Assembly (NCBI RefSeq): GCF_006345805.1
Contig: NC_042998.1
Coordinates: forward strand, 106,578,001-106,642,000
Reading direction: 5' to 3'
DNA from: Octopus sinensis
Taxonomy: Eukaryota
Length of the DNA: 64,000 nucleotides
Below, in pieces: positions 32,089 to 36,854 of this stretch; position 1 is the first letter of the stretch, and every line of letters starts with the position of its first letter. Made by a program: the position numbers and the translations under genes. The notes beneath the pieces are model-generated. The model was not told the origin of the DNA and made no database searches. It was given only the letters and a program-made list of their open reading frames with translations.

Positions 32089-32115
<27 letters not shown>

Positions 32116-32119
<4 letters not shown>

Positions 32120-32595
32120 TAGTTATCGCCATACTAATATGGCATTCTTTTAAAATAGAATAAAGCTGTCCGCTTATTAGTTCCATGAGGCCATCGCCTT
32201 AAGTTAGCTATTTGATACACAAACTGTATCCATATAACCTTTGAACAGGGAGGTCAGTCGCTCCACACTACTTGGCCGGCACTACAGACGCGTTTATTGA
32301 AAACAATGGATGTATTCCACCGAAGCTAGGTAAATAAAACCTTTGAACAGAGATTGTCAGAAGCGACACCTACTGGTCTGGCTACGCTGCATTGAAAAGG
32401 GCAATACCCCGAAACGCGTCTGTAGGTGCCGGCCAAGTAGTGTGGAGCGACTGACCTCCCTTGTTCAAAGGTTATATGGATACAGTTTGTGTATCAAATA
32501 GCTAACTTAAGGCGATGGCCTCATGGAGCTAATAAGCGGACAGCTTTATTCTTATTTTTATAAGAATGCCATATTAGTATGGCGATAACTAATAT
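32116..32595. repeat. Long inverted repeat (~180-bp arms, ~115-bp spacer), Penelope-like
   Basis: 32116-32295 is the reverse complement of 32412-32595 with few differences. Confidence 0.95.
32387..32425 (+). ncRNA. Minimal type-I hammerhead ribozyme candidate (U3-A8 variant)
   Basis: ctgca TTGAAAA ggg caatac ccc GAAA cgcg TC tgtag: 5-bp stem I, 3-bp stem II, palindromic stem III (acgcgt), GUC cleavage triplet. Confidence 0.75.
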
Positions 32596-32859
32596 TTTCC
32601 GGGAACGCTGCCGTTGTTCTCTTTTAGAGAGACTTAGTAATTTTAATATTTCTATTATATATATATATATTATATATATATATATAAACCTATACATACA
32701 TTTATATATATGTATGTAGATATACATACATATATATATGTATATGTATATTATATATATATATATAATATATATATATATATACCCAACCCATGCTAGC
32801 ATGGAGAACGGACGTTAAACGATGATGATGATGATGATGATATATATATGTTATTAATT

Positions 32860-35159: not shown

Positions 35160-36854
35160 AGGATCTTTTCATTTCCAAGGCCTGTTTTTTCGGATTTTTC
35201 CTACTTAACCAAACAATTTGAAACTTCGTATACTGGTAGAATGTGTCAGAAGAAAACATAATTGTAAACCAGAATGAAAACAGAATTGTAATTTCAAAGT
35301 TTAACGTTGTTTAATAATTAGAATTTTAACCAATGGTATTCGGTCTTTCGGCTTCATATTATTTACTCCGTCTCAATAGACGTAAATGGCTATTTTGCTG
35401 ACGTATTTAACATACGTGAAATGTAAACACCCGGTTACCGTATTCCTTCAGTTTCTATTCACATTTTTTTAATATATTATTAACTAACTTATATATTAAA
35501 CTTATATATTACTAGCAGTATCGCCCGGCGTTGCTCGGGTTTGTAAGGGAAATAACTATATAAGCATTTTTAGAGAGTTACTTCCCTTATAGATGCCAAT
35601 TCGGGCTTTCTTAGCCATTTCTGTTTTGGTGTCTTCAAGCCATGAAGTCGTTGTTCTAAAAGAACGCTGGTCTCCTTGACAACGCATTACGACATTGATT
35701 TCTTTACACTCCCTTCCCCACCGCTTCACGAGGGAGGGAAGGGGGAGAAGCAAACAGGTGCAGCTGTGAGCATGGACGCCAACTCCGCCGCCATCGACAC
35801 ATGAAAAATTATACATTAAAATGGAGTAAAAAATGATGTTAAATTATTTTTAAAATCGTAGACTCATCGTTGACGCGCGCTAATAGCCAGACGGGCTCGA
35901 TATGAATCACGACTATAAGATACCCGAATTTGGTTAAACTGCACTACAAAATGTGGGAGGAGTTAGGAATCTAAATCGAAGGGGACAGACACTCACACAA
36001 CTAGAGTTTTATATATATAGATATAACTAACTTAGTTTTTGTAAATTTTCGTATATTTTTTGTGATTTTTATTCCTTACTTTATTCGTGTAACTTTTATT
36101 TCTGTAACTTTTTATCTTTGGCAATCTTTCGTATGTGTGTGTATGTATGTGTGTGTTTGTATGTATGTATGGCCGATTCAGTGTTTACATTATTTCGAGT
36201 TAAGATTACCTTTGCTATGTAGAAAATAATGAGGTTGACTCAATGGAATAATGACAGTGATCGAAGATATAGACAAAATTTTTTTTGGTAATCTTTCGTT
36301 TTAACTCGAAATAATGTAAACACTGAATCGGCCATACATACATACACACAGACACATACATACACACACATACATACACACACACACACATACATAGATA
36401 CATACACACACACACACACACATACATGCATACATACATATACACATACACAGAGTAAAAAATTTCAGTTATCTCTCTCTTTCACACATTACTCTCTCTG
36501 TCTCTTCACACACACTAACAGAAGTACTTCACTTACACAACATACTTTCTGTCTCCCACACCCCATCAAACACACACACAAAACACAGACCTACGCACAG
36601 CTGTCTACGTCACAAAATAGCTTTCTACGTCACACTAAGATAATGCAGTTAATTATTTCAAATGAAAACAAACAATACGATTGGTTAAAATTCGCAGATT
36701 TAATCTACCCTTAAAGTTATAAAATACATTTTTCTCAAATAAACAAGTTGAAACTAGTGTTTTCTTTTGAGACACTCTACCAGTATACGAAGTTTCAAAT
36801 TATTAGTTAACTAGAAAAATCTGACAAAACAGGCCTTGGAAATGAAAAGATCCC
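35160..36854. mobile_element. Non-autonomous DNA transposon with ~100-bp TIRs
   Basis: ggatcttttcatttccaaggcctgtttt...aatttgaaacttcgtatactggtaga is inverted at about 36760-36854; no ORF; superfamily unresolved. Confidence 0.8.
35512..36021 (-). mobile_element. Non-autonomous Helitron nested in the TIR element
   Basis: Minus 5' A^TCtatatatataaaac; 3' cccgagcaacgccggg hairpin then CTAG^T; 3' ~45 bp shared with the 33353 copy. Confidence 0.85.

What the first reader, a model, noticed from the sequence alone, without database searches (positions are those of the whole stretch)
32116..32595. Apparently intact U3-A8 hammerhead with its own antisense arm
Seen: ctgca-TTGAAAA-ggg caatac ccc-GAAA-cgcg-TC-tgtag at 32387-32425. 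The canonical C3-G8 tertiary pair is replaced by U3-A8, a compensatory double change that argues for function. Stem III is the palindrome acgcgt typical of dimer-acting Penelope-like hammerheads, with predicted cleavage after 32420. The ~180-bp inverted arm ends inside the GAAA, so a read-through RNA would pair away the ribozyme's 3' half, while a transcript starting in the spacer could cleave. Inference: an insertion by-product that acts as a structural on/off switch. CpGs are intact, so it is probably young.
Basis: partly seen in the sequence, partly recalled or inferred. Interest (0 to 1): 0.8.

Follow-up and report, generated by a model that had tools for sequence, protein, structure and literature searches.

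The report
Hammerhead retrozyme copy, with LINE tenant
This is one slightly damaged copy of a small jumping repeat that carries a predicted self-cutting RNA and lies in over a thousand copies in this genome; its mirror-image arm is the usual scar of insertion and likely not a switch, but a second, larger jumping gene repeatedly lands just in front of that ribozyme in other copies.

Summary
The motif and the inverted arm are real. They belong to a 363-bp tandem repeat with a type I hammerhead in every unit (at least 1,318 exact ribozyme copies), a non-LTR retrozyme family. U3-A8 is family-wide and is already in print for Penelope-type hammerheads. The window copy is less intact than its family: it lacks one stem II base and one stem I pair.

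The arm is an insertion by-product. Of 63 other inverted insertions, 59 have one arm ending at unit position ~304 and the other at ~363, the Penelope 'tail' signature. Inner breakpoints fall in the ribozyme no more than chance (15 of 126; 14.6 expected), and 41 of 62 inverted loci have the same antisense cover. The switch reading is not supported. The scan noted similar inverted Penelope-type stumps in other genomes.

New here: (1) homologous families show C3-G8, U3·G8 and U3-A8 cores with co-varying stems; (2) an L1/Tx1-type LINE lineage inserts 11-16 nt upstream of the ribozyme core (25 of 25 3' ends in this family; a sister LINE in sister families). My searches found no report of this. Cleavage and expression are untested.

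The parts
32116..32295 (-). Left arm: inverted, 5'-truncated copy of unit positions 121-304; outer end at the inner (tail-less) start site; holds only the 3' half of the ribozyme
32294..32658 (+). Right arm: one whole 363-bp retrozyme unit ending at the outer (tail) site
32294..32295 (.). Inversion junction with 2-nt microhomology (35 of 57 clean junctions in the family show overlap)
32387..32425 (+). Type I hammerhead motif: stem I 5 bp (family 6), core with U3-A8 at 32392/32397, stem II 3 bp (family 4), GAAA 32411-32414, palindromic stem III 32414-32419, predicted cut after 32420
32334..32477 (+). Long imperfect hairpin that extends stem I and carries the ribozyme at its tip; its 3' strand is what the left arm competes for
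32596..32658 (+). Penelope-type 'tail': present on the right arm only
32360..32375 (+). Empty target site (unit 68-83) that is duplicated around an L1/Tx1-type LINE in other copies of the family
32096..32119 (.). (AT)n microsatellite, left side of the insertion target
32655..32685 (.). (AT)n microsatellite, right side of the insertion target

Best explanation
The stretch is one insertion of a 363-bp, hammerhead-bearing tandem repeat (a non-LTR retrozyme family), likely copied into an (AT)n tract by the enzyme of a Penelope-like element, and its inverted arm is likely a by-product of that copying, not a selected switch. Shown: unit, copy number, two fixed outer ends (about 304 and 363), free inner ends, AT targets, co-varying ribozyme stems. 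Inferred: family RNA is predicted to self-cleave as dimers between tandem units and may circularise; the Penelope enzyme would nick both strands of (AT)n and start reverse transcription at two sites about 60 nt apart on a circular or multimeric RNA; the two cDNAs stop at random and join by microhomology, giving a left-pointing and a right-pointing arm with the tail on one only. In this copy the arm would pair away the ribozyme in a read-through RNA, which most likely just leaves the copy inert.
For: Tandem 363-bp spacing and up to 10 units. 1,318 exact ribozyme matches, control 0. 35 inverted insertions in 52 loci of contig C1; 59 of 63 inverted insertions have one outer end at 294-308 and the other at 353 or beyond. 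Inner ends uniform over the unit (KS p=0.84 in C1, 0.22 overall) and not enriched in the ribozyme or at the cut site. The two arms of a locus are closer to each other than to the median other locus in 61 of 62. Inverted 5'-truncated copy, tail at one end and (TA)n targets are described for PLEs (PMC8557442, PMC3846280, passages); two internal start sites that bound the tail and extension of both strands were shown in vitro (PMC11167929, parts 1-2). Homologous families (about 60-66% identical to this one, z 7-14 over shuffles) keep stems I, II and a palindromic stem III with changed letters. Circular fold of a natural unit -118.7 against -83.3 +/- 5.8 for 60 shuffles. A GIY-YIG PLE family with its own C3-G8 hammerhead is present, and one insertion joins it to the retrozyme.
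Against: No cleavage or RNA data. Rfam gives no hammerhead match. No autonomous PLE carrying this sequence as its terminal repeat: 0 of 49 other PLE stretches, some overlapping; the partner rests on one composite locus, which could also be an insertion with deletion. The tail is about 60 nt, longer than the 30-40 bp described. Arms are closer to each other than to the nearest other locus in only 20 of 62 (4 ties, 38 not), and only 9 of 146 locus-private substitutions are in both arms, so a single template molecule for both arms is not shown. Samples favour insertions with an intact ribozyme (C1 set) or long copies (top-hit set). PMC11167929 found that ribozyme cleavage was not needed for insertion in vitro.
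Confidence: 0.85

Rival explanations
1. The locus is a working structural on/off switch: read-through RNA is silenced by the antisense arm while a transcript starting in the spacer cleaves.
For: Folding supports both states: stem I pair probabilities 0.0 with the arm and 0.94-1.0 without. The arm ends inside GAAA.
Against: Breakpoints are not enriched there; 41 of 62 inverted loci have the same cover; the copy has two lesions in the ribozyme and no second ribozyme in cis for a dimer; no promoter shown; the left arm is made first, so read-through RNA would be off from the start (inference).
Confidence: 0.05
2. The unit is the solo terminal repeat (pLTR) of an autonomous Penelope-like element rather than an independent retrozyme.
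For: Same insertion anatomy as PLEs; one locus has a PLE coding end directly upstream of the array; earlier scan notes read similar stumps in other genomes this way.
Against: The PLE at that locus has a different 3' region and a different hammerhead in its other copies; the unit forms pure head-to-tail arrays without coding sequence; the ribozyme is of the canonical 6-bp/4-bp kind, not the minimal PLE kind (PMC4209133). Only 150 of 19,472 PLE candidates were scored, so a matching parent is not excluded.
Confidence: 0.08
3. The palindrome is an artefact of long-read sequencing or assembly (fold-back).
For: Most differences between the arms are single-base deletions, typical of long-read error.
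Against: Fold-back would not give two fixed, different outer ends in 59 of 63 cases; contigs of four other public runs show opposite-strand joints in this family (table 5; run type is a guess).
Confidence: 0.02

Closest known systems
Animal non-LTR retrozymes (Cervera and de la Pena 2020, PMC7229834, parts 2-3 read; Li, Clavereau and Pollet, bioRxiv 10.64898/2026.07.22.740005, part 1 and passages read)
   Same: Tandem 150-450-bp non-coding units with one type I hammerhead each; mussel units of 350-390 bp; strongly self-paired circular fold; proposed to be moved by PLE enzymes.
   Different: U3-A8 core in a canonical 6-bp/4-bp ribozyme; circRNA not shown here; the PLE link here comes from insertion anatomy (two fixed ends, inversion, AT targets), whereas the preprint argues from co-occurrence and phylogeny and holds no occurrence of 'tail' or 'nested'.
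Hammerheads in the terminal repeats of Penelope-like elements (Cervera and de la Pena 2014, PMC4209133, parts 1-2 read)
   Same: U3-A8 co-variation reported (about 1,300 hits in Schistosoma mansoni); palindromic stem III and dimer action; paired motifs 100-700 bp apart on opposite strands.
   Different: Those are minimal motifs with long stem II and short stem I inside PLE repeats; this is a canonical motif in a stand-alone tandem unit. Activity of U3-A8 was not among the assays in the parts read.
PLE insertion anatomy (Arkhipova 2013, PMC3846280, passages; Craig 2021, PMC8557442, passages; Frangieh 2024, PMC11167929, parts 1-2)
   Same: Inverted 5'-truncated copy, tail on one end only, microhomology junction, AT-rich or (TA)n target, two internal start sites for reverse transcription.
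   Different: Tail about 60 nt instead of 30-40; no coding sequence; the mobilising family is not identified beyond one composite locus.
Target-specific Tx1-clade LINEs (Kojima 2015, PMC4494074, passages and section 15)
   Same: APE-RT LINEs that insert into multicopy targets (U2 snRNA genes, DNA transposons, LTR elements, satellites, microsatellites); tandem copies sandwiching one target duplication.
   Different: The target here is a hammerhead retrozyme, 11-16 nt upstream of the catalytic core; nearly all readable copies are full length. Placement in the Tx1 clade was not tested against reference elements, and the 'Sat' targets of that paper's figure were not seen.

Membership tests
Type I hammerhead ribozyme | Core with a Watson-Crick 3-8 pair, GAAA, A15.1-U16.1 and H17 | tested here: met
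   U3-A8, GAAA, H17=C; 99 of the first 100 listed family matches are U3-A8
Type I hammerhead ribozyme | Stem I 6 bp and stem II 4 bp in the typical family copy | tested here: met
   6/6 and 4/4; letters change with pairing kept across homologous families, one mismatch each in fam2 stem I and fam3 stem II
Type I hammerhead ribozyme | Stem I 6 bp and stem II 4 bp in the window copy | tested here: not met
   5/6 and 3 bp; one G lost and one C>G.
Type I hammerhead ribozyme | Palindromic stem III allowing a dimer | tested here: met
   Self-complementary in all six examples, with four different sequences; cofold forms the inter-molecular helix
Type I hammerhead ribozyme | Match to an Rfam hammerhead model | tested here: not met
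   0 matches at E<=10 on 32290-32640; none at 1e-5 on four family loci
Type I hammerhead ribozyme | Self-cleavage | not testable with these tools
   needs an assay
Non-LTR retrozyme | Dispersed head-to-tail repeats of 150-450 bp with a ribozyme in each unit | tested here: met
   363 bp; 17 of 52 C1 loci hold two or more same-strand ribozymes. The window copy itself is a monomer
Non-LTR retrozyme | Highly self-paired circular fold | tested here: met
   z -6.1 against 60 dinucleotide shuffles, 64% paired
Non-LTR retrozyme | Expressed as circular and linear monomer RNA | not testable with these tools
   no RNA holder on record; only contigs available
PLE-type insertion | Inverted 5'-truncated copy with the tail at one end only | tested here: met
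   59 of 63 inverted insertions, and the window
PLE-type insertion | AT-rich or (TA)n target | tested here: met
   flanks printed are (AT)n at most outer ends, both ends in the window
Terminal repeat of an autonomous PLE | Flanks an RT plus GIY-YIG frame as a direct repeat | tested here: inconclusive
   0 of 49 other PLE stretches share it; one composite locus; only 150 of 19,472 candidates scored
Target-specific L1/Tx1-type LINE (the tenant) | ORF1 zinc knuckle; ORF2 with APE endonuclease and RT | tested here: met
   Pfam zf-CCHC, Exo_endo_phos, RVT_1, zf-RVT
Target-specific L1/Tx1-type LINE (the tenant) | More than 20% of flanks are one multicopy target, with a target duplication | tested here: met
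   25 of 25 3' ends; 16-17-bp duplication in 21
Target-specific L1/Tx1-type LINE (the tenant) | RT phylogeny inside the Tx1 clade | not tested
   no reference set at hand; the only named homologues were distant L1-group proteins, 26-27% identical

The most novel reading that the evidence does not exclude
A lineage of L1/Tx1-type LINEs has made hammerhead retrozymes its home and borrows their ribozyme: by landing 11-16 nt upstream of the catalytic core it is bracketed by two hammerheads, which cut the LINE RNA out of the host transcript with 62 nt of target-matching sequence at its 3' end and about 317 nt at its 5' end. That would explain the exact, full-length junctions and would let the 5.7-kb LINE-plus-unit also travel, perhaps as a circle, by the Penelope route: a three-tier parasitism (PLE, retrozyme, LINE). 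The targeting alone I put at about 0.75; the borrowed-ribozyme step is untested.
Probability: 0.3. Interest if true: 0.8.

Novelty: new variant of a known kind. Interest (0 to 1): 0.5.

Why it matters
The switch idea falls, so the locus by itself is ordinary. The family is useful in three ways. It gives direct insertion footprints for the open question of what moves animal retrozymes. It gives a natural series of ribozyme cores (C3-G8, U3·G8, U3-A8) in homologous units that can be assayed side by side. And it hosts a LINE lineage whose target is a ribozyme-bearing parasite; if that LINE uses the host's hammerheads to release its RNA, it would be a retrotransposon that outsources a step that R2 elements do with their own ribozyme (R2 comparison recalled, and mentioned in PMC4494074 and PMC4209133).

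Tried and rejected
Rfam: no hammerhead match; one search returned only low-complexity microRNA-type hits.

Expression: no RNA holder listed. Contigs of four runs guessed to be RNA cover most of the unit but show no ends, strand or level; not used as evidence.

Clustering of 5' ends at the cut site: 4 of 114 within positions 126-133, 2.5 expected, p=0.24; rejected. An apparent cluster of 5' ends at position 68 turned out to be the LINE insertion site.

C3-G8 relatives with the same stem III: 18 matches against 4 for the control, none related to the unit. MAFFT misaligned stem III across families, so pairs were tabulated on structural anchors instead. The descriptor mis-parsed the main family and was redone.

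LINE hitch-hiking as the only cause: weakened, not excluded. The tree test rejects one clade for the 10 copies with one flank type (p-AU 8e-6, 7 changes), but polishing among 99%-identical copies can scramble such sites. A more distant LINE group is not ribozyme-bound: its 30 examined 3' flanks (of 68) are mixed and none starts with these families' target.

Literature searches: retrozyme+Tx1, 0 papers; retrozyme+octopus, 2 listed, neither on this by title and abstract; hammerhead/Tx1/target-specific, nothing relevant among 20 listed of 226; Tx1+U1+U2, one paper. The paper on PLE hammerheads cleaving as dimers (Lunse et al., recalled) is not held. Repbase, subscription journals and the preprint's supplements were not seen and may hold the LINE target. 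Scan notes: nothing by sequence or in this genome.

Full report
1. Observation. The motif is at the stated place: U3 32392, A8 32397, GAAA 32411-32414, self-complementary stem III 32414-32419, predicted cut after C32420. The arms are 32116-32295 and 32412-32595 (184 columns, 96.2%), and the left arm ends inside GAAA. No other copy lies in the window. The host is a 2.72-Gb genome; its repeat style looks like a cephalopod's, which is my recollection and not a tool result.

2. The family. A DNA search of G000 returned 163 matches from 40 of 1,180 candidates, the best 98-99% identical, many 363 bp apart. The window's right arm is exactly one unit. A 32-letter ribozyme pattern open at positions 3, 7 and 8 has 1,318 exact matches, control 0; of the first 100 listed 99 are U3-A8, 1 is C3-A8, none C3-G8. 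Arrays reach 10 units, and an older subfamily is about 84% identical. The typical ribozyme has stem I 6 bp, stem II 4 bp and a palindromic stem III, the canonical animal type I form of PMC4209133 (part 1), at the tip of a long hairpin; a natural unit folded as a circle gives -118.7 kcal/mol against -83.3 +/- 5.8 for 60 shuffles. This fits the non-LTR retrozymes of PMC7229834 (parts 2-3). The window copy is damaged relative to the family: of 212 ribozyme-spanning copies 190 have the 4-bp stem II, 2 the window's 3-G form, and only the window has the C>G change in stem I.

3. Is U3-A8 compensatory? Within the family it is fixed, so it says nothing about this copy. Between families it does co-vary. 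Following a neighbouring element (section 5) led to three homologous units, 62-65% identical to this one over 260-340 aligned bases, z 7-14 over 200 shuffles: fam2 (153 exact matches; 98 of the first 100 listed U3·G8, 2 U3-A8), fam2b (U3·G8) and fam3 (5 exact matches, C3-G8). Stems I and II change letters while staying paired (one mismatch in fam2 stem I, one in fam3 stem II), and stem III is a different palindrome in each. That supports a conserved ribozyme fold and suggests, by inference, a path through the wobble pair. U3-A8 is in print for Schistosoma PLE motifs, about 1,300 hits (PMC4209133, part 1), and natural U3·G8 cores are mentioned in PMC7151607 (passages). Rfam's models do not score these motifs.

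4. The inverted arm. I took all 52 loci of contig C1 behind the matches listed, and 34 top-hit loci elsewhere. After dropping two duplicated copies and one three-part locus there are 63 inverted insertions (35 and 28). In 59 of 63 one arm ends at unit 294-308 and the other at 353 or beyond; the window does the same (304 and 363). Inner ends are free: for 57 clean junctions (six complex ones set aside) 12 of 114 fall in the ribozyme, 13.2 expected, p=0.68; uniformity is not rejected (p=0.84 in C1, 0.22 overall); 35 of 57 show microhomology. With the six put back it is 15 of 126, 14.6 expected. A whole ribozyme covered by antisense sequence on the other arm occurs in 41 of 62 inverted loci. An inverted 5'-truncated copy, a tail on one end and (TA)n targets are standard for PLEs (PMC8557442, PMC3846280, passages), and a PLE enzyme extends both strands and starts at two internal sites that bound the tail (PMC11167929, parts 1-2). 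I infer double priming at about 304 and 363 with random stops. Against a single template molecule: arms are closer to each other than to the median other locus in 61 of 62, but than to the nearest other locus in only 20 of 62, and 9 of 146 private substitutions are shared. Folding confirms that read-through RNA loses stem I (0.0 against 0.94-1.0), but nothing shows that this is used. For the partner, one insertion (L047/L116) runs from an inverted PLE end through an RT and GIY-YIG frame directly into the retrozyme and ends at its tail; that PLE family has its own C3-G8 hammerhead and shares no sequence with the unit in 49 other stretches, some overlapping. One case, a lead only.

5. A tenant. 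Three C1 loci began at unit 68 behind the same sequence, a 5.35-kb LINE with a zinc-knuckle ORF1 and an APE-RT ORF2. All 25 exact 3' ends in G000 are followed by the unit from position 67-68. At the 5' side 21 of the 25 follow unit 1-83, a 16-17-bp target duplication ending 16 nt before U3; 2 follow only the duplicated target in LINE-LINE tandems; 2 run into N. All 23 readable copies are full length although they were picked by their 3' ends. Flank types on the two sides agree in 17 of 17 informative loci while the LINE tree does not follow them (polishing caveat). Of five further close copies found by protein, four lie at the same site, one of them lacking its first 127 bases, and one (93%) lies outside the family behind a U1-like 5' end (motif recalled) in a locus with an Rfam-confirmed U2 gene. 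A sister LINE (83% identical) has 29 exact 3' ends: 21 run into the fam2 ribozyme region, 5 into the fam2 target followed by another LINE, 1 into fam2b, 1 into a similar short target followed by other sequence, and 1 lies 4 nt before a U2 gene. Its copy in fam2b is about 99% identical to those in fam2 although the hosts are 79% identical, which needs an independent insertion at the homologous site, 11 nt before the core. A third LINE lies 13 nt before the fam3 core at one locus. A more distant group has mixed targets (30 of 68 examined). Hitch-hiking also seems to occur: one 29-kb inverted insertion on C3 has a LINE in 5 of 5 units and the 305/363 ends, yet its LINE copies differ by 8-18 substitutions, as much as from other loci, which I cannot explain. 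Tx1 elements that target snRNA genes, transposons and satellites are known (PMC4494074); I found no paper with a ribozyme retrozyme as target, but Repbase and subscription journals were out of reach. The window's own target, 32360-32375, is empty.

6. Verdict. Shown: a retrozyme-type repeat family, PLE-type insertion anatomy, random inversion points, core and stem co-variation across families, and a LINE lineage sitting just upstream of the ribozyme. Inferred: cleavage as dimers, circular RNA, the PLE partner, and any use of the ribozyme by the LINE. Earlier scan notes reported similar inverted PLE-type stumps and arrays in other genomes; none listed a LINE tenant. The locus alone would score about 0.2; with the family results, 0.5.

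Noticed in passing
L209-L238 (e.g. L211 1344-6692); empty site at window 32360-32375: A 5.35-kb L1/Tx1-type LINE inserted at unit 68-83 of this family, 25 of 25 exact 3' ends, all 23 readable ones full length.
   Followed up: yes
L253-L281, L287-L306; L274; L282-L286: Three further homologous hammerhead repeat families (U3·G8, U3·G8, C3-G8 cores) with the same inverted, tailed insertions, each hosting a related LINE 11-13 nt before the core.
   Followed up: partly
G000:C3:72500871-72529892 (L238, L216-L218): One 29-kb inverted insertion in which all five units carry the LINE, yet the LINE copies differ from each other as much as from other loci.
   Followed up: partly
L257 1534-1727; L236 650-680 and 6330-6523: Close relatives of these LINEs sit at the 5' end of a U2 snRNA gene and behind a U1-like 5' end, suggesting a shift between snRNA and retrozyme targets.
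   Followed up: partly
L047 7000-9901 / L116: Composite insertion: inverted PLE end, RT and GIY-YIG frame, then two and a third retrozyme units ending at the tail; the PLE family has a C3-G8 hammerhead with a long stem II and an asparagine-rich insert in its frame.
   Followed up: partly
L250, L308, L318, L323-L325, L333, L336; L251, L319, L331: Two more small repeats, at least one with inverted arms and (AT)n ends, are recurring targets of a more distant LINE group; no hammerhead was parsed in them.
   Followed up: no
window 36131-36373: A second near-perfect inverted repeat (73-nt arms, 97%, 97 nt apart).
   Followed up: no
L193, L194, L205, L207, L208: Unrelated C3-G8 hammerhead-like motifs with the same stem III palindrome; L207 and L208 hold the same motif.
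   Followed up: no
L088, L036: Whole inverted insertions duplicated locally 1.4 and 2.0 kb apart.
   Followed up: no
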